A model generated the notes under the pieces. That model had not been told where the DNA came from. It saw only the letters and a program-made list of their open reading frames with translations, and searched no databases. A stretch of 32,000 nt of DNA from Niabella pedocola (GTDB lineage: Bacteria; Bacteroidota; Bacteroidia; Chitinophagales; Chitinophagaceae), in assembly GCF_021044425.1 (NCBI RefSeq), contig NZ_JAJNEC010000005.1, positions 2,685,291 to 2,717,290 on the forward strand, in the 5' to 3' direction. Each line of letters opens with the position of its first letter. Position 1 is the stretch's first letter. This document shows positions 3,931-30,161 of the stretch, piece after piece. Made by a program: the position numbers and the translations under genes.

Positions 3931-5619
3931 ATGACGATTGTATACCTGAAGCGATGTGCTGCATACTATAAACGGGCCTGCTTGATACTACTGTTTTTGG
4001 GGTGTGGTACTCCCATGCTTTTAAGCCAGTCAAAAAAAAACAAAGCGGCCTATGACCGAATCCAGGTACTAAATCGAACCGCAAAAAAACTTAACAGCGA
4101 CTCCACCGCCCAGGCGCTGATCCTGGCGCATGAAGCCTACCTGCTGGCCGTAAAGGAAAACGACCGGTTCTGGCAGGCGCAAACCATGTTAACGCTTTCC
4201 GAGGGCTATTTATATGACGACAGTTACGACATGGCCCTGCAATATGCTTATGATGCATTGGATATCTTTCAGTCATTAAAGCATGAAACAGGTATTGCAG
4301 ACACATACACATTGCTGGGCTGGATCTTCTACGATACGGAAAACGCCATTTTGTCGATGGACTTTCATCAAAAAGCCGCGAAACTGATCGCTGCCGGTAC
4401 CGATGAAAAAAAGAAAGCGGTCGCATTAAATGCCATCGGGCTGGTGTACCAGATGATGAACAACAGCGACTCTGCCAAGATCTATTTTCAGAAAACCATT
4501 GCGATCTCCGAGGCACACAAAATAACGATTATCCAGGGCGCAGCATTGAATAACCTGGGTATCAGCGAAAACGCACTGGGGCAATACCCGCAGGCCATTA
4601 TCCATTTTGAAAAGGCCATGGAAATAGAACAGATGGAGCATCTCCATAGTAAATTACCCCTGGCTGAAGTACAAAACCAGCTGGCCTATGCATACCTCAA
4701 ACTCAACAACTATGACAAGGCTGATTCGTTATTAAAAAGTGCGCGCAGTATTATTGATGCCTCCACCTCCAATACGCGGAAGGAGAAATTGTTAGACAAC
4801 CTGCATACCTATGCCCTGCTACACCAGGCCACCGGCAACTACCAGCGTGCTTTTGAATGCCTGCAGCAATATATTGCCATTAATAACGAAATCGTTTCCC
4901 GTAATAAAACGGAAATGGTAGATGCCCTGCACCTGAGCCGGGAAACCCAAAACCGCGAAAAGCAGATCAATGAGCTGAGCGCCCAAAAAGAGCTGCGTTC
5001 CTTCCAGCGCAATGCACTGGCCGCCGGACTGGTGCTATTGGGGATCATCGGGTTTTTATTGTACAGCCGGCTACGCCGGAAACAGCAGCGCGATAAAGAA
5101 CTGGAAGCCATGAAACGGCTGCTGATCGAAAAAGAACTGGACAACACCCTGCACGAAAAAGAAGCACTCAACGATAAACTGGGATTTAAAGACCAGAACA
5201 TAAAAAAATATGCCCTGCTGCTGACCCGCAACGATGAATTGCTGAAAAACTTCATCCGGGAAACCGGCCACCTGATGACCACCGAGGAGGCTGATCTCAA
5301 AACCATGCCCAATGCTTACAGCAAGCTGGTAAAAAAATTCTTACAGGACCTGGAGCAACAGGCGAACGACAAAACACTGCATTTATCTTCGGACGATGCC
5401 CATGCCGATTTCTTCTTCAACCTGCTGCAAAAATACCCCGACCTTACCGAAAGCGAACGGAAGCTTTGCGCTCAGATCCGGCTGAATTTATCCTCAAAAG
5501 AGATTGCCGCGCTCAATAATATCTCCGTAAAATCGGTTGAAATGGCACGCTACCGGCTCAGAAAACATTTCGGATTGCAAAAAAATGAAGACCTCAATGC
5601 CTTTATAAGCTCATTTTAA
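3931..5619 (+). CDS. Membrane-anchored one-component regulator: N-terminal signal/anchor, TPR repeat domain, transmembrane helix, coiled-coil, C-terminal LuxR/GerE-type HTH
   Basis: The ORF is 562 aa. The N-terminus is hydrophobic (ACLILLFLGCGTPMLL). Repeated TPR-like units occur through aa ~60-330 (AQTMLTLSEGYLYDDSYDMALQYAYDALDIF..., ALNAIGLVYQMMNNSDSAKIYFQKTI..., ALNNLGISENALGQYPQAIIHFEKAM...). A transmembrane helix ALAAGLVLLGIIGFLLYS lies at about nt 5014-5068 and is followed by RLRRKQQR. The C-terminus LTESERKLCAQIRLNLSSKEIAALNNISVKSVEMARYRLRKHFGL is a LuxR-type HTH. Confidence 0.8.
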   Translation: MTIVYLKRCAAYYKRACLILLFLGCGTPMLLSQSKKNKAAYDRIQVLNRTAKKLNSDSTAQALILAHEAYLLAVKENDRFWQAQTMLTLSEGYLYDDSYDMALQYAYDALDIFQSLKHETGIADTYTLLGWIFYDTENAILSMDFHQKAAKLIAAGTDEKKKAVALNAIGLVYQMMNNSDSAKIYFQKTIAISEAHKITIIQGAALNNLGISENALGQYPQAIIHFEKAMEIEQMEHLHSKLPLAEVQNQLAYAYLKLNNYDKADSLLKSARSIIDASTSNTRKEKLLDNLHTYALLHQATGNYQRAFECLQQYIAINNEIVSRNKTEMVDALHLSRETQNREKQINELSAQKELRSFQRNALAAGLVLLGIIGFLLYSRLRRKQQRDKELEAMKRLLIEKELDNTLHEKEALNDKLGFKDQNIKKYALLLTRNDELLKNFIRETGHLMTTEEADLKTMPNAYSKLVKKFLQDLEQQANDKTLHLSSDDAHADFFFNLLQKYPDLTESERKLCAQIRLNLSSKEIAALNNISVKSVEMARYRLRKHFGLQKNEDLNAFISSF

Positions 5620-5822: not shown

Positions 5823-8800
5823 ATGTTTATGACAAGATTGTTTGCCCGGCACAAAAGGCCATTCGCCCTTTGTTTGCTCTGTTTTTTATGCTCCTTTTTA
5901 CATACGGTTGGGTATGCCCAATCTGGTCCCGTATCGGGTGTGGTACTGGATCCTGCCGGTGCGCCGGTGGCCGGAGCCAGTATCGTTGTAAAAGATGGTT
6001 TGGGTACCGCCGTTGCCGATGAGGGCGGACACTTCACCATTCAAACCACTGCAGCCAATGCCGTACTAGTGGTTACGGCTGTGGGATATACTTCCAGGGA
6101 AGTGGCTGCCACAGGAAACCGCGCGGTTGAAATCACATTGGAGCTGGCTGCCAAGCAAATTGATGAAGTGGTGGTTATTGGTTACGGCACCCAGAAACGG
6201 GGCAACCTTACCAGTGCTGTTTCTTCTGTAAAAGGAGACGTGATCAGCAAAATGGCCACCAACAACCCCATTAACGCTTTACAGGGAAGGGTAGCCGGCT
6301 TATCCGTTACCAGCCCGGGCGGTAACCCGGGGCAGATGTCGGATGTGCGGTTAAGAGGCATCGGTACTTTTGGCGGTCATCAGCCCCTGTATATTATCGA
6401 TGGGGTACCCGGTGATCCATATTATTTAAACAATAACGACATTGAGTCGATAGAAGTATTAAAAGACGGTGCTGCTGCATCCATTTATGGATCCAACAGT
6501 GCCAATGGAGTGGTGATCGTCACCACTAAAAAAGGAAAAAAAGGCGAACCGGTGATCGACTTCAGCAGTTATTACGGTCAGGTAAAACCCACGAATAAAT
6601 ATAAGCTGCTGGATGCCGAGGGCTATAAAAGTGTACACCGTATGATGTATGAAAATGCCGGCAATACCCAGTTACCTGCTTATATTACCACCAATACCGG
6701 GGTAAATACCAATTGGCAGGACCAGATCCAGCAAACGGGTACCGCACAAAATTATAATGTGGGTATCAGAGGCGGCGGTGAATTTATAAAATATGGGATC
6801 AGTGGTGATCTTACCGACGAAAAGGGTACGTTGATCGGCTCCAGTTTTGATAAAAAAACGATCCGTTCTACCAATGAGATCAAAAAGGGGATACTGACAC
6901 TGGAAAATAACCTGCTTTTTTCCAATACCAGATCCGAAGCCTATAAGTTTGATATCCGGGATGCCTATTTTCAATCGCCCCTGCTACCGGTAACGGACCC
7001 CGGCGAACCTTACGGGTATGGATTAACGGTGAACGGGTTGCCCAAGTTTCAAAACCCGGTGGGCTATGCGCATTATGTAGACGGGTATACCAAAACGCAA
7101 TACTTTGCAGATAACCTGAGGCTCCGGTTGCAATTGTTCAAAGGATTTAGCTATACCGCACAGCTGAATTATATCAGCGCCAACAGCTTTGATTATTCGC
7201 ACCATCCGCCGTTCCGGGCCAATGCCAACGATCCGGCGGTATCTTATTCATATGTATACAACAGCCGCTCCAATTATAAAGAACAGCAAATGGAGCATTT
7301 GCTCAACTATGACTGGAAAAAGGGCGATCACAGCCTCAAAGTACTGGCCGGTTATTCGGCGCAGCAAAAAACAAACGAATACCTGAGCGTAACGGCCGAT
7401 GGCAAAACCATTGTACGGTCGGTGGTAAACGGTTCCATCGTGGAAAAAGAAGTGGCGGGCGGTTTCTCCAACCCGGATTTTAATACCATCAATGCTGGTT
7501 TGGGCGGCACATTCGGCGCTTCCGGTTCCAATAATAAATATGTACGCCTTTCTACTTTCGGAAGGATTAACTATGACTATGCCGGTAAATACCTGGTACA
7601 GGCAAGTGTGCGGCGGGACGGTTCTTCCGTTTTTGGACAGAACAACCAGTTTGGAACCTTCCCTTCGGCCTCTGTGGGCTGGAACATGCACCAGGAATCC
7701 TTTTTAAAAAACAGCCGGTGGCTGAATGTTTTAAAGCTCAGGGCCAGTTATGGCGAGTTGGGTAACGAAGGCGCCCTGGGGTATTACGATCACCAGGCCC
7801 TGATATCCACGCTCAATACCTGGGCCGGCGGGTATGTACAGGGATCCGGAGCCACACCCTGGCCGGGATCTGCCAGCTACACCCTGCAAAACCGCGACCT
7901 GAAATGGGAAACCAGCAAATCGACCAATATCGGCGCCGACTTTGCATTTCTGAACAATAAGCTTACCGGTTCTGTAAACTATTTCAATAACAAAACCGAA
8001 GGCCTGCTGATCACCAAGGAGGTACCGCCATCTGCCGGTGTAAATGACCCCATCTTAAACGTGGGTACCATCTCCAATAAAGGTATTGAGCTGGAGCTAA
8101 CCTACAATTACGCGAAAAACGACTGGAATGTGGCTGTTACCGGATCGGTAACGCGTATTAAAAATGAAGTGATCAAACTGGCGCAATCCGATCAGACCTT
8201 ATACGGAACAGGGCTGAAATTCGGAACTGACCATATTCCCACACAAACCAAAGAAGGCAACGAAATAGGCGCTTTTTATCTATACACGGCTGATGGCATT
8301 TTTCAATCCGATGCAGAAGCGGCTGCTTACGTAAATAAAGATGGTGAACGATTACAGGCCGATGCAAAAGCGGGGGATGTAAAATTCCTGGATACCAATG
8401 GCGATGGCGTTATTGATGAAAAGGATAAAACCTACCAGGGATCCGGGTTTCCGAAAATGGAATATGGATTAAACCTGTCTGTTGGTTATAAGAGCTTTGA
8501 TCTTACCGCCTTTTTCCAGGGCGTAAGCGGCAACAAGATCTACAACGGTTACCGTTTTGAGCTGGAAGGCATGGATGCCGGGCGTAACTTCCTTACCACT
8601 GCGTTAAATGCCTGGACGCCGCAAAACACCCATACTACGGTACCGCGTGCCGTACTGGGAGATCCTAATGGCAATAACCGCGAATCGACCCGCTTTTTGG
8701 AAAACGGGTCTTACCTGCGGATGAAGTTACTGCAGCTGGGATATTCGCTGCCCGCCACTGCGGCTCGTTTTGCCCGGTTGAACCGGTTGCGGATCTATGT

Positions 8801-8945
8801 AGCGGCACAAAACCTCTTTACCATTACGAAATACAGCGCCCTCGATCCGGAAGTGGGGGTGTTTAACCCGCTGAATACAGGAGTAGACCGTGCGCTGTAT
8901 CCGCAAAATAAACGGTGGCTGGTAGGGCTCCAGATCGGTTTATAA
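5823..8945 (+). CDS. SusC/RagA-family TonB-dependent outer-membrane transporter
   Basis: The ORF is 1040 aa with a signal peptide. It has an N-terminal CarboxypepD_reg segment (VSGVVLDPAGAPVAGASIVVKDG) and the SusC signature IDEVVVIGYGTQKRGNLTSAVSSV. The plug motifs are ALQGRVAGL, IRGIGT-like LRGIGTF and PLYIIDGVP...IESIEVLKDAAASIYGS. The C-terminus is a beta-barrel ending in F/L-rich strands. A SusD gene follows directly. Confidence 0.95.
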   Translation: MFMTRLFARHKRPFALCLLCFLCSFLHTVGYAQSGPVSGVVLDPAGAPVAGASIVVKDGLGTAVADEGGHFTIQTTAANAVLVVTAVGYTSREVAATGNRAVEITLELAAKQIDEVVVIGYGTQKRGNLTSAVSSVKGDVISKMATNNPINALQGRVAGLSVTSPGGNPGQMSDVRLRGIGTFGGHQPLYIIDGVPGDPYYLNNNDIESIEVLKDGAAASIYGSNSANGVVIVTTKKGKKGEPVIDFSSYYGQVKPTNKYKLLDAEGYKSVHRMMYENAGNTQLPAYITTNTGVNTNWQDQIQQTGTAQNYNVGIRGGGEFIKYGISGDLTDEKGTLIGSSFDKKTIRSTNEIKKGILTLENNLLFSNTRSEAYKFDIRDAYFQSPLLPVTDPGEPYGYGLTVNGLPKFQNPVGYAHYVDGYTKTQYFADNLRLRLQLFKGFSYTAQLNYISANSFDYSHHPPFRANANDPAVSYSYVYNSRSNYKEQQMEHLLNYDWKKGDHSLKVLAGYSAQQKTNEYLSVTADGKTIVRSVVNGSIVEKEVAGGFSNPDFNTINAGLGGTFGASGSNNKYVRLSTFGRINYDYAGKYLVQASVRRDGSSVFGQNNQFGTFPSASVGWNMHQESFLKNSRWLNVLKLRASYGELGNEGALGYYDHQALISTLNTWAGGYVQGSGATPWPGSASYTLQNRDLKWETSKSTNIGADFAFLNNKLTGSVNYFNNKTEGLLITKEVPPSAGVNDPILNVGTISNKGIELELTYNYAKNDWNVAVTGSVTRIKNEVIKLAQSDQTLYGTGLKFGTDHIPTQTKEGNEIGAFYLYTADGIFQSDAEAAAYVNKDGERLQADAKAGDVKFLDTNGDGVIDEKDKTYQGSGFPKMEYGLNLSVGYKSFDLTAFFQGVSGNKIYNGYRFELEGMDAGRNFLTTALNAWTPQNTHTTVPRAVLGDPNGNNRESTRFLENGSYLRMKLLQLGYSLPATAARFARLNRLRIYVAAQNLFTITKYSALDPEVGVFNPLNTGVDRALYPQNKRWLVGLQIGL

Positions 8946-8990
8946 AGCAGCAATCTTTTAATAGCAGAAAATCAACGTAAAAATATTCAG

Positions 8991-10520
8991 ATGAAAAAGA
9001 ACATATTCCCGGTATTGGCTTTCACGTTAGCAACAGGGCTGTTGTCCTGCAGTAAGAGCAACCTGACCCAATTGGCGCCGGACCAATTGACCACCGACAA
9101 TTATTGGATATCAAAAGATAAAGCGCTGTCAGGGCTGGCTGCCGCCTATTCACAGCTGGAAAGTTTTACCGGCTGGGATAATTATGTGGAAGCAAGATCC
9201 GTACGCGAGTTTTACCGCGAGGATTATATCGCACCCGGTGAAGATGCCTATAACTACTCCTGGTGGATGGACCATTACAATTTTTCGTTCACATCGGGCA
9301 ACTATGCCATCGATCTTTTATGGCGGGATAATTACAGGGGTTTAAACCTTACCAACCAGGTACTGGAAGGCATTGAAAGGATCCCGGCCGGCAGCATTGA
9401 CGATGCCGGTAAAAAACAGATCATTGCCGAGGCAAAATTTTTGCGAGCCTATTATCATTTTAAATTACTGACCAATTTTGATAAAATTATCCTGCGGGAT
9501 AAAGTGCCGGTATCCGAGGCCGACCTGGCCAAAGGGCTTTCCGAAAGAAAGGATGCGTATGATATGATCCTGGCCGACCTCAGCGCCGCAGTACCGGACC
9601 TGCCGTTGAAAAGCGAAAGGCCTGCTGCAGAGCAGGGCCGGATCACAAAAGGTGCGGCGCAGGCGTATATCGGTAAAGTAAACCTGTACCGGGCATCGGA
9701 AGACGCGGCCAATGCCGCTACGTATTATACCAATGCGGCCAACAGTCTGAAAACAGTGATCAATTCCAACGAGTACCAGATCGATCCGGATTTTCTTTCC
9801 ATGTTCAACGGAACCACAAAAAACGGAGTGGAGTCCATTTTCGAATTGCAGCAAACCGCCGATGCTTCCAATGGCGCCTATTACCGGTCCTTCCTCTCGG
9901 ATTGGGTGGCGGCTTCAGATCTGGGCGGCTATGGAGAGATCTATGGCACCCAGCGCCTGCTTACGGAAATGAAAAAAGAAGGTAAGGTAGCCACCGGTGG
10001 TCTGTACGATCCCCGGAGTTATGGTACGGTTTATTTTGAAGACAGCTATTTTAATGATGCCACCAATCCAAGGGTGTATGGCGACACCTATAACAATGTA
10101 TTTGGCAACGGCAAAAACATTATCGCCTTCCGGAAGTGGATCCCTCCAACGCCGGATCGCATTGGCCGTTCCAATGCCATCAATGTACCGCTGATGCGTT
10201 ACGCGGATGTGATGCTGCTTTATGCAGAGGCCCTGAACGAAAGCGGCAAACCGGCGGAGGCGGTACCCGTAATCAATAGTTTAAGAAAGCAGCGCAGCAA
10301 TATGCCGGCGTTAAATATCAGCAGTAAACAGGAGGTATTCAATGCGATCGTACACGAGCGGGTGATGGAGTTTACGCTGGAGAGCAGCCGGTTTTACGAT
10401 TTGAGAAGATGGGGGCTGTTAGCGAAAAATATGCAGGAAGCCGGCCGCACCTTCAGTGCAGATAAAGCGTATTACCCGCTTCCGTTAAAAGAAACATTGA
10501 ATAATCCGCAAACAAAATAA
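8991..10520 (+). CDS. SusD/RagB-family outer-membrane lipoprotein (glycan-binding partner of the SusC)
   Basis: The ORF is 509 aa with a lipobox (ATGLLSC-SKSN). SusD-type TPR-like helices are present (AEAKFLRAYYHFKLLTNFDKIIL, YADVMLLYAEALNE, ERVMEFTLESSRFYDLRRWG). It starts 45 nt after the SusC stop. Confidence 0.9.
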   Translation: MKKNIFPVLAFTLATGLLSCSKSNLTQLAPDQLTTDNYWISKDKALSGLAAAYSQLESFTGWDNYVEARSVREFYREDYIAPGEDAYNYSWWMDHYNFSFTSGNYAIDLLWRDNYRGLNLTNQVLEGIERIPAGSIDDAGKKQIIAEAKFLRAYYHFKLLTNFDKIILRDKVPVSEADLAKGLSERKDAYDMILADLSAAVPDLPLKSERPAAEQGRITKGAAQAYIGKVNLYRASEDAANAATYYTNAANSLKTVINSNEYQIDPDFLSMFNGTTKNGVESIFELQQTADASNGAYYRSFLSDWVAASDLGGYGEIYGTQRLLTEMKKEGKVATGGLYDPRSYGTVYFEDSYFNDATNPRVYGDTYNNVFGNGKNIIAFRKWIPPTPDRIGRSNAINVPLMRYADVMLLYAEALNESGKPAEAVPVINSLRKQRSNMPALNISSKQEVFNAIVHERVMEFTLESSRFYDLRRWGLLAKNMQEAGRTFSADKAYYPLPLKETLNNPQTK

Positions 10521-10548: not shown

Positions 10549-15797
<5,249 letters not shown>

Positions 15798-15799
15798 TT

Positions 15800-18109
15800 A
15801 TGTCACTTCATCCGGAAACCGTACAACAAATAGCAAAAAACCATTACCAGCTGGACGCCGTAGCCACCGTTTTAAACGGCTATGAGGAGCAAAATTTTTT
15901 ATTGCAAACAGCCGGTGGCGGGCAGTATATTTTCAAAGCAGCCCCGGGCAATGTCAATCCGGCATTTATCCAGGCACAGGTAACGGTTTTGCAACAACTG
16001 GCCCAAACGCCCGTAAGGGACTACTTTCAGCATTGCCTGCTCAACGGGGAAGGCGCCGCCGTTACCTTTTATGCCCAGGGTGACGCAGGGTATTATGTGC
16101 GCATATTGAGTTTCCTGGAGGGGCATTTCTGGGTGGAGGAAAAGGAAAAATCGCCGGCACTTTATGAAAGCCTGGGACGCTTCCTGGGCGCAATGGATCG
16201 GGCGCTTGAAGGGCAATATTATACGGCGGCTGAGCGTACCTACGAATGGGATATCAGCCGGGCGGCCGACGCTGAAAAAAACCTGCATCATATTCATGAT
16301 CCCGAAAAAAGAAGGATAGCCGCTTATTTCCTGCTGCAGTTTCAGACGGAAGTAGCACCGCAGCTTTCATCGTTAAGAAAAGCCTGCATCCATAACGATG
16401 CCAATGATTATAACGTTCTGATACAGGATGGGCGGGTAAGCGGGCTGATCGACTTTGGGGATATGGTTTGGTCGGCTCTGATCAATAACCTGGCGGTGGC
16501 CTGCACCTACGCTATGTTGCATACGGATGATCCTGTTGCCGTAGCGGCACCTATTGTAAAGGCCTATCATCGGCAGTGCCCCTTAACGCCGGCAGAAACA
16601 GATCTGATCTATTACCTGGTGGCGGCAAGGCTTTGCATCAGTGTAACACAATCGGCAGAGAAGGCATCGCACCACAGTGATAATACGCATCATTTTTTAA
16701 CCGAGCAGCCCGCATGGACATTGTTATTTCAACTGCTGCAAACCAACCCCATAAAGGCTGCTGATGCGTTCCGGAACGCCTGTGGGTTTAACCCGCTGAT
16801 TGATGCAAACGATGATTATGCCGCTTTATTATCCGGGCGGAAAGCCCATATAGGCCGCAACCTCAGCATCAGCTATAAAAAACCATTGAAAATTATAAAA
16901 GGTGCCTTGCAGTACCTGTATGATGACAAGGGGCATACCTTTATCGACTGCGTAAACAATGTAAGTCATGTTGGACATTGTCACCCGGTAGTGGTAAAAG
17001 CCATGCAGCGGCAGATCGCCACGCTCAATACCAATACCCGTTATCTCAATGATGCGATGATGGACTATGCAAAGGCACTTACGGCAAAACTGCCTTCCCG
17101 GCTTTCGGTTTGTTATTTTACCAATTCGGGCAGTGAGGCCAATGACCTGGCGATACGAATGGCCCGGCACTTTACCGGCAATAAGGATGTGATCGTGCTG
17201 GATCATGCCTATCATGGTACGTCGACCCTGGCTATTGAAATGAGTCCCTACAAATTTGACGGCAAGGGTGGCGGCGGACAGCAACCCTATATTCATAAAG
17301 CCGTATCACCGGATCTGTACCGCGGTGCCTGGCAATACGGGGATGCCGATGCCGGTGAAAAATATGCAGCAGCGATTCTGAAGCTGCTGCATGAACTGAA
17401 ACAGGAACATAAAGGCCCTGCAGCGTTTATTTGTGAAACCTTACTGGGTGTAGGTGGACAGATTCCCCTGCCGGAGGGGTACCTGGAGAACGTATATGCG
17501 CATATCCGTGCCTTTGGAGGGCTGTGTATTGCAGATGAAGTACAGGTAGGCTTCGGGCGGGTAGGGGATGCGTTCTGGGGCTTTGAATTACAGGGGGTGG
17601 AACCCGATATGGTGGTATTGGGCAAACCGATTGGTAACGGACATCCGTTGGCCGCCGTAGTGGTAACGGAGGCCATTGCAGATGCATTTAATAACGGCAT
17701 GGAGTATTTTAATACCTATGGGGGCAACCCGGTGTCGATGGTTACGGGCCAGGCGGTATTGAAAGTGATTGAGGAAGAGGCGATGCAGCAGCATGCGCAG
17801 CAGGTGGGTGCCGTGCTGTTAGAAGAACTGAAGGCCCTGATGGATAAATATGAGATCATTGGGGATGTGCGGGGGCATGGACTGTTTGTGGGGGCCGAGT
17901 TTGTAAAAAGCCGCTCTACCAGGGAGCCCGCGGTAACAGAGATCAACCACGTGGTGGAGCAAATGAAAGAGCGCGGGTTTTTGCTCAGCACCGACGGGCC
18001 TTTATACAATGTGCTAAAAATAAAACCGCCGTTGGTATTCAGCGAGCAGAACGCAAGAGACATGGTAGCAGCGCTGGATGCAGTGTTGCGGGCGGAAGCG
18101 TTTGGATAG
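15800..18109 (+). CDS. Bifunctional fusion: N-terminal APH-fold kinase resembling hydroxylysine kinase (HYKK/AGPHD1) + C-terminal class-III PLP enzyme resembling AGXT2L-type phospho-lyases (PHYKPL/ETNPPL)
   Basis: The ORF is 769 aa with no signal peptide and starts 2 nt after the GH63-like stop. The kinase half has [16 protein letters not shown], the Brenner motif [12 protein letters not shown] (His at 16391-16393, Asp at 16397-16399) and LIDFGDM (16448-16468). The PLP half has [35 protein letters not shown] and [22 protein letters not shown], with the Schiff-base Lys at 17624-17626. That last motif closely matches the human ETNPPL/PHYKPL motif DIVTMGKPMGNGHP as I recall it. Confidence 0.85.
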
Positions 18110-18183: not shown

Positions 18184-19071
18184 ATGTTAAACAGTATACT
18201 AAATGGATTAATGGTACGCTACAGGGAGCGCGTACCGGATGTAGGTGCCATCCTCGATGCCATGATCACTGAAGGCATCATTCAGCGCGCGGATGCTATT
18301 GAAAACGATCATATCGCCTTTCGCACCATGGGGGTTGAAAAGCTGGGTATCCAATCGCTGGAGCGGGTATTTTTACATTATGGCTATCAGAAAAAGGAAC
18401 ACCTGTTCTTTAAGGAGAAAAAACTGGATGCCTATTGGTATGCACCTCCGGAAGCGCATTATCCACGCATTTTTATCAGTGAACTCCGGGTGGGTGACCT
18501 CAGTGCCAATGCGCAGCGGATCATCCGCAGCTATACGGATGAGGTGAAAGCCGATCCTGTTGCGGAGCTTGATCTGAACGATGCGGTTGCCGTAGACCAT
18601 TACCTGCACAGCGGGCGCTGGCGTACGCCTACACTGGAAGATTATAATGCCTTGCTTGCAGAAACGGAGTATGCGGCCTGGGTTATTTTCAATCATTATT
18701 ACCTGAATCATTTTACAGTAAGTGTACACAATCTTCCGGCTGGATTCAATACCCTGGAGACGTTTAATGCATTCCTTAAACGTAGAGGATTTAAGCTGAA
18801 TACGGCCGGCGGCGAGATCAAAAAGAGTCCCGACGGGAAGTTGCTGCAAAGTGCCACTGTGGCGGAAATGATTGAAGCCACTTTTGCCAATGGTGAAAAA
18901 AAGCAGATCGCCGGCTCCTATGTAGAGTTTGCCGAACGGAAAGTGCTGGATCAGTTTGCACACCTGCCTCCGGAGCAGGTGCGTCGCGAACACCGCCGCG
19001 AGGGTTTTGAAACCGGCAATGCCGACAAGATTTTTGAAAGTACGTATACCTCGCAGACGAAGGGCAGCTGA
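18184..19071 (+). CDS. hglS: DUF1338 / HglS-family protein (2-oxoadipate dioxygenase/decarboxylase-like, VOC-fold Fe(II) enzyme)
   Basis: The ORF is 295 aa. It has the N-terminal DHIAFRT motif (metal-ligand His at 18310-18312), YLNHFTVSV and the C-terminal SYVEFAERK, which are characteristic of DUF1338 as I recall the family profile. It is shorter than the ~450-aa YdcJ/HglS forms and comparable to the short DUF1338 subgroup. It is adjacent to an aminoadipate-semialdehyde dehydrogenase, as in the Pseudomonas putida lysine catabolic region. Confidence 0.7.
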   Translation: MLNSILNGLMVRYRERVPDVGAILDAMITEGIIQRADAIENDHIAFRTMGVEKLGIQSLERVFLHYGYQKKEHLFFKEKKLDAYWYAPPEAHYPRIFISELRVGDLSANAQRIIRSYTDEVKADPVAELDLNDAVAVDHYLHSGRWRTPTLEDYNALLAETEYAAWVIFNHYYLNHFTVSVHNLPAGFNTLETFNAFLKRRGFKLNTAGGEIKKSPDGKLLQSATVAEMIEATFANGEKKQIAGSYVEFAERKVLDQFAHLPPEQVRREHRREGFETGNADKIFESTYTSQTKGS

Positions 19072-19290: not shown

Positions 19291-20820
19291 ATGATCAACG
19301 ATATCTTAAATACATTTTCAATCAGCGAACAAAATCCCGGAGCCTCCGATGGGGTTCAATTCATCTCCACCTCCGGTGCAGGCATCAATTCCTGGTCGCC
19401 GGTGGATGGCCATAAAATAGCCGGTGTACAAACCGTAACCAAAGCGGAATATGACCAGGTGATCACTAAGGCACAAGCCGCATTCCGCTACTGGCGAACG
19501 GTTCCGGCGCCTGCACGTGGCGAGATCGTGCGCCAGATCGGCGAAGCATTACGGGTACATAAGGATGCTCTTGGAAAGCTGGTTTCCTATGAAATGGGCA
19601 AAAGCCTGCAGGAAGGCCGGGGCGAAGTACAGGAGATGATCGATATCTGCGACTTCGCCGTGGGCCTGTCGCGCCAGTTATACGGGCTCACCATGCATTC
19701 GGAGCGGCCGGCTCACCGGATGTATGAGCAATGGCATCCATTAGGTATAGTAGGCATCATTTCGGCGTTCAATTTTCCTGTAGCGGTATGGAGCTGGAAT
19801 GCCATGATTGCCCTGGTTTGCGGAGATGTATGTGTATGGAAGCCGTCGGAAAAAACACCGTTATCGGCGCTGGCCTGTTTCCGGATCCTTACGGAAGTAT
19901 TTAACAAAAACCAGTTGCCGGAGGGGCTTTGCAGCCTGGTACAGGGCGGTAAGGATCTGGGTGAATGGATGGCGGAAGACCCGCGCGTGGCCCTGGTTTC
20001 GGCCACCGGATCTACCCGCATGGGTAAGGCGGTGAATATTACCGTGGCGGCACGGCTGGGCAAATGCCTGCTGGAACTGGGCGGTAATAATGCCATTATT
20101 GTTTCGGGCGATGCTGATCTGGATATGACCCTGATGGGGGTGGTATTTGGTGCGGTAGGCACGGCCGGGCAACGGTGTACCACCACCCGCAGGCTGATCA
20201 TTCACGAAAGTGTTTTTGGCCAGCTCACAGAGAAATTGAAAAATGCATATGCGCAACTAAGGATCGGCGATCCTTTAGATGCCAGAAATCATGTAGGGCC
20301 GTTGATTGATAAAGATGCCGTTGCGCAGTATCTGCAGGCGCTGGATGCGATCCAAAACGAAGGGGGGACTTTTATCGTGGAAGGCGGCGTCCTGGAAGGA
20401 GCGGAGTACGCTTCGGGGTGTTATGTAAAGCCCTGCATTGCAGTTGTAGAAAACCATTTTGCGATCGTGCAAACCGAAACCTTTGCCCCCATCCTGTATG
20501 TGATGCAATACCGGGATATGGAAGAGGCCATTGCAATGCAGAACGATGTGCCGCAGGGATTATCTTCCGCTATCATGACCCTGAACCTGCGGGAAGCCGA
20601 ATTATTCCTTTCTGTCGCGGGTTCGGATTGTGGTATCGCCAATGTGAATATCGGTACTTCCGGTGCGGAGATCGGCGGGGCATTTGGCGGGGAAAAAGAA
20701 ACCGGTGGCGGCCGCGAAAGTGGCTCCGATGCCTGGAAAGCCTATATGCGCCGTCAAACCAATACGATCAATTACGGGAAAGAGCTGCCGCTGGCACAGG
20801 GGATCGCATTCAATATCTGA
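19291..20820 (+). CDS. amaB: ALDH7A1 (antiquitin)-type L-2-aminoadipate-6-semialdehyde / piperideine-6-carboxylate dehydrogenase
   Basis: The ORF is 509 aa and is nearly collinear with human ALDH7A1 motifs. These include GEIVRQIGEALR, GEVQEMIDICDFAVGLSR, FNFPVAVWSWNA, CLLELGGNNAIIV and GTAGQRCTTTRRLIIHESV (catalytic Cys at 20176-20178). TETFAPILYV and SDCGIANVNIGTSGAEIGGAFGGEKETGGGRESGSDAWKAYMRRQTNTINYGKELPLAQGI also match. Confidence 0.95.
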   Translation: MINDILNTFSISEQNPGASDGVQFISTSGAGINSWSPVDGHKIAGVQTVTKAEYDQVITKAQAAFRYWRTVPAPARGEIVRQIGEALRVHKDALGKLVSYEMGKSLQEGRGEVQEMIDICDFAVGLSRQLYGLTMHSERPAHRMYEQWHPLGIVGIISAFNFPVAVWSWNAMIALVCGDVCVWKPSEKTPLSALACFRILTEVFNKNQLPEGLCSLVQGGKDLGEWMAEDPRVALVSATGSTRMGKAVNITVAARLGKCLLELGGNNAIIVSGDADLDMTLMGVVFGAVGTAGQRCTTTRRLIIHESVFGQLTEKLKNAYAQLRIGDPLDARNHVGPLIDKDAVAQYLQALDAIQNEGGTFIVEGGVLEGAEYASGCYVKPCIAVVENHFAIVQTETFAPILYVMQYRDMEEAIAMQNDVPQGLSSAIMTLNLREAELFLSVAGSDCGIANVNIGTSGAEIGGAFGGEKETGGGRESGSDAWKAYMRRQTNTINYGKELPLAQGIAFNI

Positions 20821-20969: not shown

Positions 20970-21695
20970 CTATGCATCTTTTGCTGCTGCTGAAGGACCA
21001 GCATCCAGACTAAGCCGTATAAAGTGGTTCTCCAGGTGGTTGCGCATTCCGTTCCGGAATTCTTCCGGTGTTCCATTTTCCAGAATGCCGATCAGTTGCT
21101 TGTGGGAAACAAATTTTTTGGGATTCAGTACTGGCGCCAGTAAAGAGCTTTTTTCGACATAATCGAAGACGGGCAGCAGCAATTTCTGAAATTTCATCAG
21201 GGTTTCATTATGGCTGATCTGGTAAAGCTTTCCGTGAAAGGCGATTTCATAAGAGGCCTCAAACATCCGGTTACGGGCGGCGGCGGGCTCGTTCTTTACG
21301 ATCTGCTTCAATTCTTTAATATCTTCTGCAGTAATGTGCCTGAAGAGCAGATCGGCCATCCCGATTTCCAGTACCAGCCGTATCTCAAAAATCTCCTTTA
21401 ATGTATCATTACTAAGAATATAGGGGTTCATGCTTTTGGCCAGGGTTCCAAAAATATCGGGACTGGTGATCACGGCGCCCTTTTTCTTACGGCTTTCGAT
21501 AAGCCCCATCAAGCGGAGCCGCATAAGGGCTTCCCGGATTACCGTGCGGCTTACGCCGAGTGCGGTGGAAAGCTCCAGCTCCTTCGGAATGCTATCCCCT
21601 ACCTTCAGCTTGTGTTGATGCAATAATTCAATGAGGTTAGCTTCCACCTTGTCCACGAGGCTTCTGTTTTCTATTGCTTTGAATATACGTTCCAT
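20970..21695 (-). CDS. GntR-family (FadR subfamily, FCD C-terminal domain) transcriptional regulator, probable regulator of the adjacent sialic-acid locus
   Basis: The ORF-track start at 21800 adds 35 aa encoded by AT-rich promoter-like DNA. The ATG at 21693-21695 (MERIFKAIENRSLVDKV...) gives a typical 241-aa FadR-like protein. Its winged HTH is GDSIPKELELSTALGVSRTVIREALMRLRLMGLIESRKKKG, followed by an all-helical FCD-like C-terminus. It is divergent from the SusC gene. Confidence 0.85.
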   Translation of the reverse strand: MERIFKAIENRSLVDKVEANLIELLHQHKLKVGDSIPKELELSTALGVSRTVIREALMRLRLMGLIESRKKKGAVITSPDIFGTLAKSMNPYILSNDTLKEIFEIRLVLEIGMADLLFRHITAEDIKELKQIVKNEPAAARNRMFEASYEIAFHGKLYQISHNETLMKFQKLLLPVFDYVEKSSLLAPVLNPKKFVSHKQLIGILENGTPEEFRNGMRNHLENHFIRLSLDAGPSAAAKDA

Positions 21696-21786
21696 TGTAA
21701 TAATAATGCCGTAAAGTAATTTATTTACACGGATACCAGGAAAATTTTTTAAAAAATTTGGAAATCTAAAATTTGTTCCTAATTTT

Positions 21787-21803
21787 ATTATGTTATACAT
21801 AAT
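21787..21803. promoter_or_regulatory. Perfect 7-3-7 palindrome ATTATGT-TAT-ACATAAT, a candidate GntR-type operator in the divergent promoter region
   Basis: Read directly from the sequence, ATTATGT (21787-21793) is the reverse complement of ACATAAT (21797-21803). The core TGT-N3-ACA fits the general GntR/FadR operator pattern. The site lies 24 nt upstream of the SusC ATG (21827) and 92 nt upstream of the regulator ATG (21695). Confidence 0.4.
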
Positions 21804-21826
21804 GCTAAAACGATAAATTGTTTGTT

Positions 21827-24800
21827 ATGCAGCAAATCTGCTCAAAATGTGGCCTGCTTGTCCTGCTTTTTTTAATGACCCTGCCGGGACTTTCGCAGGT
21901 GAAAACATTGACCGGCCTGGTGCGCGACGAAGCGACCGGCACCGCACTGGCCGGGGCCACCATTACGATTAAGGGAAAGACCACTACCGTGGTTGCCAAC
22001 GACGAAGGCGCTTTTTCTATTGCCGCCGCACCGGGTGATGTACTTTTAATATCCTATACGGGCTACGACCCCAAACAGGTTACCGTAGACAGCCAGTCGG
22101 GGATTACGGTTGCTTTATCTGCGCAGCTTAGTTCCAAAATGGATGAGGTAATTGTAGTGGGTTATGGTACGCAAAAACGAAGGGATTTTAATGGTGCCGC
22201 CTCCAAAGTAAATCCCCTGGCGCTGGAGCACAATCCCAATACCAATGTTGCCGCCGCACTGCAGGGTACGGTGCCGGGCTTACTGGTGCAGCAAACAACC
22301 GGGCAGCCGGGCACCTCGCCCAAGATCGTATTCCGGGGCGGAACGGGCTTTGACGGAACCGGTGATCCCCTGGTGGTAGTGGATGGAGTGGTGTTGCCCA
22401 GCTTGTACGGGTTAGACATGAACGACATAGAATCCATGGATGTATTAAAGGATGCTGCGTCTACTGCAATCTATGGCGCGCGTGCCGCCAACGGGGTGGT
22501 GCTCATCACCACAAAAAAAGGAAAGAAGGGAAGAACGCAGGTTCAGTACTCCATCCGGCAAACCATCAATTATCCAAGAAGTATAGCGGATGATTATTTA
22601 AGTGCTGCAGATTATATCCGTATGAACCGGCTGGGACTGCGGGCCAGGTATATCGCCGATTCGCTTACCGGCACCGGCGTTACCGGGGATAAAGGCCAGC
22701 TTACCGGTGCATGGGGCTGGGCCCTGGGCGCTACCAATACATCGCCGGTAGGGCTTTACACAACGCAGTTGGTTACCAACGCCAACAGGAAATATCTTAC
22801 AGACCCCAACTGGAAATTACTGGTGGATCCCAATCCATTTTACCCGGCCGCCAGAGATAGCATCCTGTATCGCGAAATATCCACGCAGGAGCGGGAAGCC
22901 ATGCTGATGCAACGGACAAATACCACCGAGCATTCACTGTCGCTTTCCGGGGCCAATGATCAGGGCGGGTTTGCATTAAACCTCAATGCCGTAAAAGATA
23001 ATGGTGTAATCATCGGTTCCTGGCTTAAACGGATCAATATGAACTTTAACGGCTCATTAAATGTAGGAAAGAACCTGAAGGTGGCCTTGAATACATCCGC
23101 TTATAATATTGACCAGGGCGTACCTTACTCAGAGCCCGGTATTGCCGGCAGTACCGGCGCCACCGGTGGTCTTATGCAGCGGTTCCTGGGTGTGGCTCCT
23201 ACCGTACGTTACTATAACGACACATCGGGTGTTGTACTGCCTGGCCCTAATGATGTAAGCCTGGGTAATCCGCAATACTGGGGTAATTTATATATTAACA
23301 GCACCAACCAGCAGCGGTTTATGGGAAGCCTGAACCTTGAATATACCATACTCCCATTCCTTAAGTTTGTGGCCAATGGTTCAGGATATATGCTTTATCA
23401 GAACAATAATAACTTTACAAAGGCCTATCAACAGGGCAATGGTGGCTCCATGAATACTACCCGTTCCGCCTCCTTCAGCAACTATCGCGATATTCAATAT
23501 ACCTATAACGGCTTCTTACAGTTTGATAAAAATATCAATGATCACAATATCAGTTTCATGGCCGGTGGAGAGTTCCTGGATTATAAGCGCTATACCTTCT
23601 CCGGTGCGGCATCCGGCGCGCCTACTGATATTATTCCCTGGCTAACAGCCGCTACGCCGCCGTCTGTGGTAAACGGGGTGATTGTGAACCCGGCCAGCGC
23701 TTCTTCCAATTTTCCTTACTGGGAGCGGTTGGCCTCAGGTATCGGCAAACTCAACTATTCCTACCGGGGTAAATATTTCCTTACCGGTATTCTCCGGCTG
23801 GATGGGTCTACCCGGCTCAATGAAACCAACTATTATGGACTATTTCCGGGGGCATCAGCCGGCTGGAACCTGCACAACGAAAACTTTTTCAAAAACAGCA
23901 AGCTGTCAACATATATCAGTACTGTTAAGCCACGCCTCAGCTACGGGGGAAATGGAAACCTGCAATATTTTGGTACCAGTTACTTCCCTACCGCACAGGT
24001 ATATTCCAATGCCGGGGTGTATAATGGAATGGGGGGCACGTATGCGCCCAATTATATCAATCCCGACCTGAGATGGGAGCGGACCAATTCGCTGAACATG
24101 GGTGCAGACCTTGGCTTCTTCCAGGACCGCATCACCATCATCGGTGATTACTTTATCAGGAATGTATTTGATAAGCTGGCGAACCTGCCAATTTCAGCAC
24201 AGACCGGCTTTACCAGCTATACCACTAATTTATCCCAGCTGCAGAACAGGGGCTGGGAATTGTCGATCAATGCAAAGGCGATCGCTCCTAAAAAAGAAGG
24301 AGGTTTTAGCCTGGACCTGGGAGCTACTTATTATACCGTTAAAAGCTATGCAATCAAACTTCCCTACAACGGACTGCCAGGCAACAGGCAAGGCACCATA
24401 CAGGTTTGGGATCCCCAGAATCCCGAACAGTTAAAGCAGGTAAATGGTTTGATAGAAGGCGAGCGTGTGGGCTATGATGAAGTATGGGCGCCCAAATGGG
24501 CAGGTATTTATACCACACAGGAGATGCTTGCGGCTGATGCCAGTGTGTACAATGCCTTCCTGCCGTATACGGGTGATAATAAAAAATTCAAACAACTGGG
24601 CGATGCCCGGTGGCTGCAGGTAAATAAGAACGATACCATCGACTCGCGGCAATATGTTTTTGTGGGGCGTACCACGCCAAAAGGATCGGGCAGTTTCTTT
24701 TTAAATGCCGGGTTTAAAGGCGTGCGGCTGTATACGGCATTTGATTATGCGTATGGTTTTGTGATCCTGAACAATAATACACTCAGAGGGCTGAGCCAGG

Positions 24801-25183: not shown

Positions 25184-25204
25184 CCATCAATAAATTTTAC
25201 AATA

Positions 25205-26731: not shown

Positions 26732-26808
26732 TGCCATCGGCAAAATAATATAGATTAGCTGCCGTGTATGTGCAAAAAATTGTTTTCATTCAATAGTATA
26801 TAAAATTT

Positions 26809-27741: not shown

Positions 27742-27750
27742 ATTGCACAC

Positions 27751-30155: not shown

Positions 30156-30161
30156 ATCAGT

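What the first reader, a model, noticed from the sequence alone, without database searches (positions are those of the whole stretch)
15800..18109. Single polypeptide fusing a hydroxylysine-kinase-like APH domain to an AGXT2L-type phospho-lyase domain
In animals the two activities, HYKK/AGPHD1 kinase and PHYKPL/AGXT2L2 phospho-lyase, are separate proteins. Here one 769-aa ORF carries both. The kinase catalytic motifs are intact ([12 protein letters not shown]). The class-III PLP domain is complete, and its lysine motif ([10 protein letters not shown]) resembles the phospho-lyase subgroup rather than ordinary transaminases. A fusion would channel the phospho-intermediate, and it strongly implies consecutive reactions (phosphorylation, then 1,2-elimination of phosphate and ammonia). 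The start codon is only 2 nt from the stop of a secreted glycosidase gene, an unusual partner for an amino-acid catabolic enzyme.
Basis: partly seen in the sequence, partly recalled or inferred. Interest (0 to 1): 0.65.

Follow-up and report, generated by a model that had tools for sequence, protein, structure and literature searches.

The report
Hydroxylysine kinase–phospho-lyase fusion in collagen-glycoside operon
One bacterial gene joins the two enzymes animals use to break down hydroxylysine; the fusion type has been known since 2012, but here it sits in a sugar-uptake operon that looks built to consume the glucose-galactose-hydroxylysine units of collagen.

Summary
ORF 15800-18109 (+) encodes 769 aa with an APH-fold kinase domain (aa 25-259) and a class-III PLP domain (aa 363-762). 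All quoted motifs are present, and the start lies 2 nt after the stop of a GH63 gene.

The C-domain is 52% identical to human ETNPPL. In a tree it joins the characterised phospho-lyases (100/99 support), away from the genome's seven other class-III enzymes.

The fusion is not new. It is the two-domain form of the PRK06148/PRK06149 family. By my recollection, such bacterial fusions led Veiga-da-Cunha et al. (2012) to the human enzymes. More than 8000 database homologues and at least 589 genomic loci exist.

The "unusual" glycosidase partner has an explanation. The operon runs SusC-SusD, GH2 beta-galactosidase, GH63 YgjK-like alpha-glucosidase, fusion, HglS, then an ALDH7-type aminoadipate-semialdehyde dehydrogenase. 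This order recurs across Chitinophagaceae, Pedobacter, Flavobacterium and Saprospiraceae. Some loci swap in non-orthologous glycosidases (GH42 for GH2, GH31 for GH63), and one carries a kinase-lyase-HglS triple fusion.

Best reading: 5-hydroxylysine is freed from collagen-type Glc-Gal-Hyl, phosphorylated, and eliminated to aminoadipate semialdehyde.

No enzyme was assayed. This scan has noted the same thing in at least 127 other genomes. Verdict: new member of a known kind, moderate interest.

The parts
15800..18109 (+). Fusion gene, 769 aa: N-terminal APH-fold kinase plus C-terminal AGXT2L-type phospho-lyase; no signal peptide, so presumably cytoplasmic
   Evidence: AF2 model pLDDT 87.4, pTM 0.90
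15872..16576 (+). Kinase domain core (aa 25-259; the fold runs to about aa 330). Catalytic loop HNDANDYN at 16391-16414, Mg-binding DFGD at 16451-16462, conserved K46
   Evidence: Pfam APH. Matches PRK06148 profile positions 13-344 at 288 bits. Domain model pLDDT 95.6. Nearest solved folds are AmiN, type II homoserine kinase and aminopropanol kinase at 14-18% identity. Invariant residues.
16886..18085 (+). Class-III PLP domain (aa 363-762) of the phospho-lyase clade; PLP lysine K609 at 17624-17626 within [10 protein letters not shown] (17618-17647)
   Evidence: Pfam. 52% identity to human ETNPPL 6tor and 39% to A1RDF1 5g4i. Foldseek TM 0.93 and 0.91. Clade support 100/99. Clade-specific motifs.
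13755..15797 (+). GH63 / YgjK-like alpha-glucosidase gene ending 2 nt before the fusion; proposed to remove the alpha-1,2-glucose
   Evidence: Pfam MGH1-like_GH, YgjK_N, GH63. PDB YgjK E about 1e-95. NCBIfam PRK10137 at 437 bits, below the 625 cut-off. Syntenic in 37 of 61 loci, counting GH31 substitutes.
10588..13755 (+). GH2 LacZ-type beta-galactosidase, stop overlapping the GH63 start (TAATG); proposed to remove the beta-galactose from Hyl O5
   Evidence: Pfam. NCBIfam Bga2A at 981 bits, just under the 999 cut-off. A beta-galactosidase (GH2 or GH42) lies next to the fusion in 45 of 61 loci.
5823..10520 (+). SusC-like TonB-dependent transporter (5823-8945) and SusD-like lipoprotein (8991-10520): the uptake pair of the locus
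   Evidence: Pfam; present in 40 of 61 loci
18184..19071 (+). HglS / DUF1338 2-oxoadipate dioxygenase-decarboxylase (2-oxoadipate to D-2-hydroxyglutarate)
   Evidence: Pfam HGLS 1e-66. PDB 6w1k hydroxyglutarate synthase 1.3e-61, with DHIAFRT aligned to DHFAFRT. Function from Thompson et al.. Fused to the kinase-lyase in L051.
19291..20820 (+). ALDH7-type L-piperideine-6-carboxylate / 2-aminoadipate-semialdehyde dehydrogenase: consumes the predicted product of the lyase
   Evidence: NCBIfam pip_6_carb_DH equivalog, 837 bits above the 730 cut-off. PDB antiquitin/ALDH7A1 at 1e-166 to 1e-177. A second copy at 73% identity lies elsewhere in the genome.
3931..5619 (+). TPR-containing protein upstream of susC, a possible regulator; not studied here
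   Evidence: Pfam TPR; homologue upstream of susC in L050 and L051

Best explanation
The gene encodes a cytoplasmic two-domain enzyme that performs two consecutive steps of 5-hydroxy-L-lysine catabolism.

Step 1 (inferred): the N-terminal APH-fold kinase transfers a phosphate from a nucleoside triphosphate to the 5-hydroxyl.

Step 2 (inferred): the C-terminal PLP domain binds the 6-amino group as an external aldimine, eliminates phosphate (1,2-elimination), and releases ammonium and 2-aminoadipate 6-semialdehyde.

The gene is the fifth of a seven-gene operon-like row. SusC/SusD would import collagen-type glycosylated hydroxylysine, as the free glyco-amino acid or in short peptides. The YgjK-like GH63 would remove the alpha-1,2-glucose and the GH2 would remove the beta-galactose, which frees the 5-OH the kinase needs.

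After the fusion, the ALDH7-type dehydrogenase makes 2-aminoadipate. An unidentified transaminase makes 2-oxoadipate. HglS makes D-2-hydroxyglutarate. A YdiJ-like FAD/Fe-S dehydrogenase encoded elsewhere in the genome would give 2-oxoglutarate.

Shown here: domain identities, clade membership, gene order and its conservation. Inferred: every substrate and every reaction.
For: 1. Domains and catalytic residues are intact and invariant.
2. The PLP domain is 52% identical to human ETNPPL. Its E-value is 2.8e-142, against about 1e-50 for the best transaminase, racemase or decarboxylase. Foldseek gives TM 0.93 to 6tor. It falls in one 100/99 clade with ETNPPL and the Arthrobacter phospho-lyase A1RDF1, separated from the genome's seven other class-III enzymes. 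It shares clade-only motifs.
3. The downstream ALDH passes the NCBIfam equivalog cut-off for piperideine-6-carboxylate dehydrogenase (837 against 730) and matches ALDH7A1 at 1e-166. That enzyme's substrate is exactly the product expected from 5-phosphohydroxylysine.
4. HglS follows. One relative (L051) is a single 1078-aa APH-AT3-HglS polypeptide.
5. Synteny in 61 loci with enough upstream flank: beta-galactosidase in 45, alpha-glucosidase also in 37, SusC/D in 40, spanning several Bacteroidota families.
6. Non-orthologous replacements keep the predicted activities: GH42 replaces GH2 in Flavobacterium, and GH31 replaces GH63 in L025 and L064. GH2-GH63 single-ORF fusions occur in Flavihumibacter.
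7. A YdiJ-like FAD/Fe-S dehydrogenase flanks the fusion in six loci and is present at 48% identity in this genome. Its role in D-2HG oxidation and that of HglS come from Thompson et al..
8. From my own knowledge, not verified here: E. coli YgjK prefers Glc-alpha-1,2-Gal, the collagen disaccharide (Miyazaki et al. 2013).
Against: - Nothing was assayed.
- I could not obtain HYKK or PHYKPL sequences, so orthology of the kinase domain to HYKK, and any preference for hydroxylysine over ethanolamine, were not tested directly.
- The two closest characterised lyases with solved structures (ETNPPL, A1RDF1) act on phosphoethanolamine, not phosphohydroxylysine.
- The operon has no inner-membrane importer for hydroxylysine.
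- No 2-aminoadipate transaminase reaches its NCBIfam cut-off anywhere in the genome.
- GH2 and GH63 both score just under their NCBIfam cut-offs, and their specificities are inferred.
- 14 of 61 loci have the fusion with no glycosidase or SusC/D nearby, so the link is frequent but not obligatory.
- Only about 7 of 400 evenly sampled Bacteroidota genomes carry the full-length fusion.
Confidence: 0.7

Rival explanations
1. Ethanolamine kinase plus phosphoethanolamine phospho-lyase. The fusion would phosphorylate ethanolamine (for example from phosphatidylethanolamine turnover) and cleave it to acetaldehyde, ammonium and phosphate, as human ETNPPL and Arthrobacter A1RDF1 do.
For: The nearest solved and characterised relatives of the PLP domain are phosphoethanolamine lyases. 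An aldehyde dehydrogenase lies downstream.
Against: The ALDH is a specific ALDH7 / P6C-dehydrogenase equivalog, not an acetaldehyde dehydrogenase. HglS, which acts on a C6 2-oxo-diacid, is adjacent and in L051 is physically fused. Conserved beta-galactosidase and alpha-glucosidase partners have no role in ethanolamine use.
Confidence: 0.08
2. Kinase and phospho-lyase for a different vicinal amino alcohol. Candidates are 1-amino-2-propanol, as in the mycobacterial aminoacetone-utilisation microcompartment, or an amino-alcohol aglycone released by the two glycosidases from a non-collagen glycoconjugate.
For: Aminopropanol kinase 6ef6 is among the best structural matches of the kinase domain. The substrate was not determined, and 14 of 61 loci have other contexts.
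Against: Identity to 6ef6 is only 16%. There are no microcompartment or propionaldehyde genes nearby. ALDH7, HglS and YdiJ-like neighbours all point to the aminoadipate branch.
Confidence: 0.1
3. The fusion does act on hydroxylysine, but free hydroxylysine from any source. Its adjacency to SusC/D, GH2 and GH63 would be an operon of convenience, with the glycosidases serving ordinary beta-galactoside or alpha-glucoside glycans.
For: Flavobacterium genomes carry a second copy of the fusion away from any glycosidase, near saccharopine dehydrogenase. 14 of 61 loci lack glycosidases.
Against: The same pair of activities is kept next to the fusion across families, even when the glycosidase family is swapped (GH42 for GH2, GH31 for GH63). 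Intergenic gaps here are 2 nt or overlapping. The PUL carries its own extra ALDH7 copy.
Confidence: 0.1
4. The C-domain is a genuine omega-transaminase, and the kinase is an antibiotic- or sugar-modifying APH. The fusion would then act in aminoglycoside or amino-sugar metabolism.
For: Public annotation reads 'aminotransferase class III-fold PLP-dependent enzyme' and 'RdoA-like kinase'. The kinase fold is shared with APHs.
Against: The PLP domain is deep inside the phospho-lyase clade with clade-only motifs. The best NCBIfam APH(3') match is E 1.8e-4, against 1.6e-85 for PRK06148.
Confidence: 0.02

Closest known systems
Vertebrate hydroxylysine kinase HYKK (AGPHD1) plus 5-phosphohydroxy-L-lysine phospho-lyase PHYKPL (AGXT2L2); Veiga-da-Cunha et al., J Biol Chem 2012 (paper not held here; content from my own knowledge)
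   Same: The same two chemistries in the same order (kinase, then PLP-dependent 1,2-elimination of phosphate and ammonia). The same two protein folds. The product feeds ALDH7A1, whose homologue lies two genes downstream here.
   Different: In animals these are two separate proteins; here they form one 769-aa polypeptide.
Human ETNPPL (AGXT2L1, PDB 6tor) and Arthrobacter aurescens phospho-lyase A1RDF1 (PDB 5g4i)
   Same: 52% and 39% identity over the whole PLP domain, TM 0.93 and 0.91, the same clade, and the same GKPxGNGHP, LNTNTRY and NVLKIKPP motifs.
   Different: Both are stand-alone enzymes characterised on phosphoethanolamine. The genomic context here points to the C6 substrate instead.
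NCBIfam PRK06148 / PRK06149: uncharacterised bacterial APH-M23-class-III 'aminotransferase' tri-domain proteins of about 1000 aa
   Same: The N-domain matches profile positions 13-344 and the C-domain matches 584-1010. A Bacteroidota example, L091, has all three Pfam domains.
   Different: The window protein lacks the central M23 peptidase-like module and scores 948.6, below the 1128 cut-off. It is the two-domain variant.
Pseudomonas putida aminoadipate route (AmaB, HglS/PP_5260, YdiJ/PP_4493; Thompson et al. 2019 and 2020)
   Same: The downstream half of the proposed pathway: ALDH7-type dehydrogenase, HglS and a YdiJ-like dehydrogenase.
   Different: In P. putida the pathway is entered from D-lysine via pipecolate, not from hydroxylysine, and the genes are not in a PUL.
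Animal protein-glucosylgalactosylhydroxylysine glucosidase PGGHG (GH65)
   Same: The same proposed reaction as the neighbouring GH63: removal of alpha-1,2-Glc from Glc-Gal-Hyl.
   Different: A different glycoside hydrolase family (GH63, clan GH-G, against GH65). The activity of the bacterial enzyme is untested.

Membership tests
AGXT2L-type ammonio-phospho-lyases (ETNPPL / PHYKPL / A1RDF1) | Class-III (fold-type I) PLP domain with the Schiff-base lysine | tested here: met
   Pfam Aminotran_3 at 248 bits. K609 aligns with the GKPMGNGHP lysine of 6tor and 5g4i.
AGXT2L-type ammonio-phospho-lyases (ETNPPL / PHYKPL / A1RDF1) | Groups with characterised phospho-lyases and apart from transaminases | tested here: met
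   Clade support 100/99, with a 3.8-unit stem separating it from the genome's seven other class-III enzymes. The PDB E-value drops from 1e-142 and 1e-95 to 1e-50. PHYKPL itself was not in the tree.
AGXT2L-type ammonio-phospho-lyases (ETNPPL / PHYKPL / A1RDF1) | Releases phosphate and ammonia from an O-phospho vicinal amino alcohol without an amino acceptor | not testable with these tools
   Needs an enzyme assay.
HYKK-type / APH-fold small-molecule kinases | APH (eukaryotic-like kinase) fold with the HxDxxxxN catalytic loop and the DFG metal-binding motif | tested here: met
   Pfam APH at 82.6 bits. H198, D200, N205, D218 and D221 are invariant. Foldseek matches to AmiN, homoserine kinase II and aminopropanol kinase at TM about 0.7.
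HYKK-type / APH-fold small-molecule kinases | Orthology to vertebrate HYKK and activity on 5-hydroxylysine | not tested
   No HYKK sequence or structure was available; PDB holds no close relative. The link rests on my recollection of Veiga-da-Cunha et al. 2012.
NCBIfam PRK06148 (APH-M23-class-III tri-domain subfamily) | Whole-protein score above the curated cut-off; central M23 domain present | tested here: not met
   948.6 bits against a cut-off of 1128. Pfam finds no Peptidase_M23, unlike L091. The window protein is a two-domain relative, not a member of the tri-domain subfamily.
Bacteroidota polysaccharide-utilisation locus (PUL) | Adjacent susC/susD-like pair co-oriented with glycoside hydrolase genes | tested here: met
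   SusC, SusD, GH2 and GH63 lie on one strand with short or overlapping gaps, conserved in 40 of 61 loci.

The most novel reading that the evidence does not exclude
The fusion is the committed cytoplasmic step of a Bacteroidota utilisation locus that I could not find described in the literature searched. The locus would be dedicated to collagen's Glc-alpha1,2-Gal-beta-O-hydroxylysine. It would import a glyco-amino acid, remove both sugars with a GH63 (a non-orthologous counterpart of animal GH65 PGGHG) and a GH2, and then burn the aglycone amino acid to 2-oxoglutarate with operon-encoded enzymes. It would also be the first substrate assignment for the large PRK06148-type kinase/phospho-lyase family in bacteria.
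Probability: 0.55. Interest if true: 0.65.

Novelty: new member of a known kind. Interest (0 to 1): 0.4.

Why it matters
The fusion itself adds little, because bacterial kinase/AGXT2L fusions were the clue that identified the human enzymes in 2012. To my knowledge the bacterial proteins have never been assayed, and databases still call them 'aminotransferase class III-fold enzyme'.

This context gives a concrete, testable substrate assignment for a family with thousands of members. It also suggests how soil and freshwater Bacteroidota recycle the protease-resistant glycosylated hydroxylysine left after collagen breakdown. It further offers candidate enzymes, a GH63 Glc-Gal-Hyl glucosidase and a Gal-Hyl galactosidase, of possible use in collagen glyco-analysis.

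Tried and rejected
- The key paper (Veiga-da-Cunha 2012) is not in the held library by PMC id or DOI. Its content is cited from memory. The only support found is its citation in a review's gene-fusion passage, placed by reference order.
- I could not obtain HYKK or PHYKPL sequences. The homologue search returned only bacterial fusions in its top 120.
- A PDB sequence search with the kinase domain gave only catalytic-loop matches to protein kinases.
- Sigma-70 promoter and terminator scans were at background level and say nothing for Bacteroidota.
- The search for a 2-aminoadipate transaminase found only generic class-III enzymes below the cut-off.
- The M9 collagenase search is void, because the control rang nowhere.
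- Inter-domain geometry and channelling could not be examined. No coordinates or PAE are returned, and the physiological unit is probably a dimer. Only pTM 0.90 is available.
- Literature searches for a bacterial Glc-Gal-Hyl or Gal-Hyl pathway or PUL found nothing. This covers only the held open-access library.
- A transaminase or aminoglycoside-kinase reading was considered and rejected.
Full report
**Observation**

The window has an ATG-started ORF at 15800-18109 on the + strand, 769 codons (translation P0001).
- Pfam places an APH phosphotransferase domain at aa 25-259 (E 4.7e-23) and a class-III aminotransferase domain at aa 363-762 (E 1.6e-73), both far above their gathering scores.
- All quoted motifs are present: HNDANDYN (aa 198-205), DFGD (aa 218-221), and [10 protein letters not shown] (aa 607-616) with the lysine at K609.
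- In an alignment of 61 full-length homologues, H198, D200, N205, D218, D221 and G608-K609-P610 are invariant.
- The upstream ORF ends at 15797 and the DNA reads TAG-TT-ATG, so the 2-nt gap is correct.
- The fusion has no N-terminal hydrophobic segment. The two glycosidases upstream do. No signal-peptide predictor was run.

**C-terminal domain**

- Against the PDB by sequence, the best matches are human ethanolamine-phosphate phospho-lyase 6tor (E 2.8e-142) and the Arthrobacter phospho-lyase A1RDF1, 5g4i (2.1e-95). The E-value then drops to about 1e-50 for racemases, dialkylglycine decarboxylase and transaminases.
- Identity is 52% to ETNPPL over 420 columns and 39% to A1RDF1.
- An AlphaFold2 model built on 61 sequences has mean pLDDT 87.4 and pTM 0.90. 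Foldseek ranks 6tor (TM 0.93) and 5g4i (TM 0.91) first.
- I built a maximum-likelihood tree of 29 rows. It held the window's domain, 13 close fusions, six distant, split or tri-domain Bacteroidota forms, ETNPPL, A1RDF1 and the seven other class-III enzymes of the same genome. All kinase-linked domains plus ETNPPL and A1RDF1 fall in one clade (100/99), on a long stem away from the genome's other class-III enzymes.
- Several motifs are shared only inside that clade: NNVxHVGH without the two-residue insertion, LNTNTRY, GKPxGNGHP, [15 protein letters not shown], EYFNT[YF]GGNPVS and NVLKIKPP.
- PHYKPL and AGXT2 were not in the tree because I could not obtain their sequences.

**N-terminal domain**

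- No solved structure is close by sequence.
- A domain model (pLDDT 95.6) matches small-molecule kinases of the APH fold. The best are amicoumacin kinase AmiN, type II homoserine kinase 2ppq and the microcompartment aminopropanol kinase 6ef6, at TM about 0.7 and only 14-18% identity.
- In NCBIfam the domain matches positions 13-344 of PRK06148 at 288 bits (E 1.6e-85). The next best is homoserine kinase at 4.5e-15.

**The architecture is known**

- NCBIfam PRK06148 and PRK06149 are profiles of roughly 1000-aa proteins whose two ends correspond to the two domains here.
- A Bacteroidota example fetched here (L091, 1010 aa) has APH, Peptidase_M23 and Aminotran_3. The window protein lacks the M23 module and scores below the PRK06148 cut-off (948.6 against 1128). 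It is the two-domain variant.
- Split forms, with adjacent 338-aa kinase and 432-aa lyase genes, also exist (L089).
- A database search saturated at 8000 homologues, and all but one (P0095, a 458-aa protein with only the PLP domain) of the top 120 carry both Pfam domains. They are annotated only as 'aminotransferase class III-fold PLP-dependent enzyme'.
- The genome collection returned at least 589 loci.
- From my own knowledge: Veiga-da-Cunha et al. (J Biol Chem 2012) noted bacterial bi- and tri-functional proteins joining an APH-type kinase to AGXT2L homologues. They used this to identify AGPHD1 as hydroxylysine kinase and AGXT2L1/2 as phospho-lyases. That paper is not in the held library.
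[quoted passage not shown] The in-text numbers are stripped, so I place the citation at that sentence from the reference order.
- In an even sample of 400 Bacteroidota genomes, 14 of the 401 searched (G000 included) matched at E <= 1e-150. About seven of these are full-length fusions.

**Context, and why the glycosidase is not an odd partner**

On one strand the window carries, in order:
- a TPR protein (3931-5619);
- SusC (5823-8945) and SusD (8991-10520);
- a LacZ-type GH2 (10588-13755);
- a GH63/YgjK-like enzyme (13755-15797);
- the fusion;
- an HglS/DUF1338 protein (18184-19071);
- an aldehyde dehydrogenase (19291-20820).

Evidence on the downstream genes:
- The dehydrogenase passes the NCBIfam equivalog cut-off for L-piperideine-6-carboxylate dehydrogenase (837 against 730 bits). 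It matches ALDH7A1/antiquitin structures at 1e-166 to 1e-177. Its substrate, 2-aminoadipate semialdehyde, is the product expected from 5-phosphohydroxylysine.
- HglS matches hydroxyglutarate synthase 6w1k at 1.3e-61, with the DH.AFRT motif conserved.
- Thompson et al. showed that this family converts 2-oxoadipate to D-2-hydroxyglutarate. They also showed that the FAD/Fe-S protein YdiJ (PP_4493) oxidises the latter.

Evidence on the GH63:
- It matches E. coli YgjK at about 1e-95.
- By my recollection (Miyazaki et al. 2013, not verified here), YgjK prefers Glc-alpha-1,2-Gal, the collagen disaccharide.

**Comparative test**

I took the 80 best loci, called ORFs and clustered them.
- Among the 61 loci with at least 9 kb upstream, 45 have a beta-galactosidase next to the fusion, 37 also have an alpha-glucosidase, and 40 have SusC/SusD. 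In addition, 15 have HglS, 12 have the ALDH7 type and 6 have a YdiJ-like gene.
- The taxa include Chitinophagaceae, Sphingobacteriaceae (Pedobacter), Flavobacterium and Saprospiraceae.
- In Flavobacterium the GH2 is replaced by a GH42 beta-galactosidase. In L025 and L064 the GH63 is replaced by a GH31. In L037, L041 and L045 GH2 and GH63 form one ORF of about 1650 aa. In L051 the kinase, lyase and HglS form one 1078-aa ORF (Pfam).
- Keeping the predicted activities while the protein families change is hard to explain unless the activities act on one substrate.
- In this genome the fusion, GH63 and HglS are single-copy. A second ALDH7 copy (73% identity), a saccharopine dehydrogenase and a YdiJ-like gene (48% identity) lie elsewhere. 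The locus therefore carries its own dedicated ALDH7.

**Mechanism proposed**

All reactions below are inferred.
1. SusC/D take up Glc-Gal-Hyl or short glycopeptides.
2. The GH63 removes glucose and the GH2 removes galactose. This exposes the 5-OH.
3. An unidentified permease imports hydroxylysine.
4. The fusion phosphorylates it and eliminates phosphate and ammonia, giving aminoadipate semialdehyde.
5. ALDH7, an unidentified transaminase, HglS and a YdiJ-like enzyme take the carbon to 2-oxoglutarate.

Gaps: no importer is encoded in the operon, and no transaminase exceeds its cut-off.

**Rivals**

Ethanolamine or another amino alcohol as substrate, a merely incidental adjacency, and a true transaminase are all listed with their evidence. 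All are weaker, chiefly because of the ALDH7, HglS and YdiJ neighbours and the L051 fusion.

**Literature and earlier notes**

- Searches of the held library found no description of a bacterial pathway or PUL for glycosylated hydroxylysine.
- After reaching this reading I consulted the scan's notes.
- Follow-ups on at least 127 other genomes, including Pedobacter africanus (my L074), reached the same reading. These are not independent evidence.

**Verdict**

It is wrong in treating the fusion as new and the glycosidase neighbour as odd.
- This is a new member of a known kind.
- Interest is moderate (0.4). It rests on the testable substrate assignment and the operon context, not on the fusion.

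Noticed in passing
L051:9971-13207 (Sphingobacteriales bacterium 50-39): A single 1078-aa ORF carries APH, Aminotran_3 and HGLS domains. This kinase-lyase-HglS triple fusion links the phospho-lyase physically to 2-oxoadipate metabolism.
   Followed up: partly
L041:5014-9954; also L037 and L045 (Flavihumibacter): GH2 beta-galactosidase and GH63 YgjK-like glucosidase are fused into one ORF of about 1650 aa, directly upstream of the kinase-lyase gene.
   Followed up: partly
L006:7776-9911 (Flavobacterium); L025:7577-9811: Non-orthologous replacements occur in the same slot. A GH42 beta-galactosidase replaces GH2 in eight Flavobacterium loci, and a GH31 replaces GH63 in L025 and L064.
   Followed up: partly
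L038, L042, L055 (Flavobacterium sp. W1B, F. pygoscelis, F. gillisiae): Flavobacterium sp. W1B (L038) and F. gillisiae (L055) carry a second copy of the fusion outside any PUL, a few genes from a saccharopine dehydrogenase and PEP carboxykinase. The F. pygoscelis locus (L042) has the same context, but no PUL copy was recovered for it. This may be a route for free hydroxylysine.
   Followed up: no
L091:3705-12333 and L089:7978-14998: The tri-domain (APH-M23-AT3) and split forms in other Bacteroidota sit beside galactokinase, a DHDPS-family gene and aminopeptidase P (L091), or beside a DAO-type oxidoreductase and a DHDPS-family gene (L089). These neighbours resemble hydroxyproline or collagen-peptide catabolism.
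   Followed up: partly
G000:C3:149090-150607 and G000:C8:263902-266808: The genome has a second ALDH7-type gene (73% identical to the one in the locus). It also has a YdiJ-like FAD/Fe-S dehydrogenase (48% identical to the Flavobacterium neighbour), a candidate D-2-hydroxyglutarate dehydrogenase that would complete the pathway.
   Followed up: partly
window 20970-31730: Immediately downstream lies a separate sialic-acid-type locus: a GntR/NanR-like regulator, SusC/SusD, a NanA-like lyase, a NanM-like epimerase, an MFS permease and a BNR sialidase. A GH18 gene is at 2-868. This suggests a genomic neighbourhood devoted to animal-type glycoconjugates.
   Followed up: no
window 3931-5619: A TPR-repeat protein lies just upstream of susC. 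It has homologues in the same position in L050 and L051, and weak NCBIfam matches to the BT3442 family and FimS. It is a possible locus regulator.
   Followed up: no
G000:C3:576922-577893: A Pro_racemase-family gene (E 6e-128, 4-hydroxyproline epimerase-like) is present. This is consistent with use of another collagen-specific amino acid.
   Followed up: no
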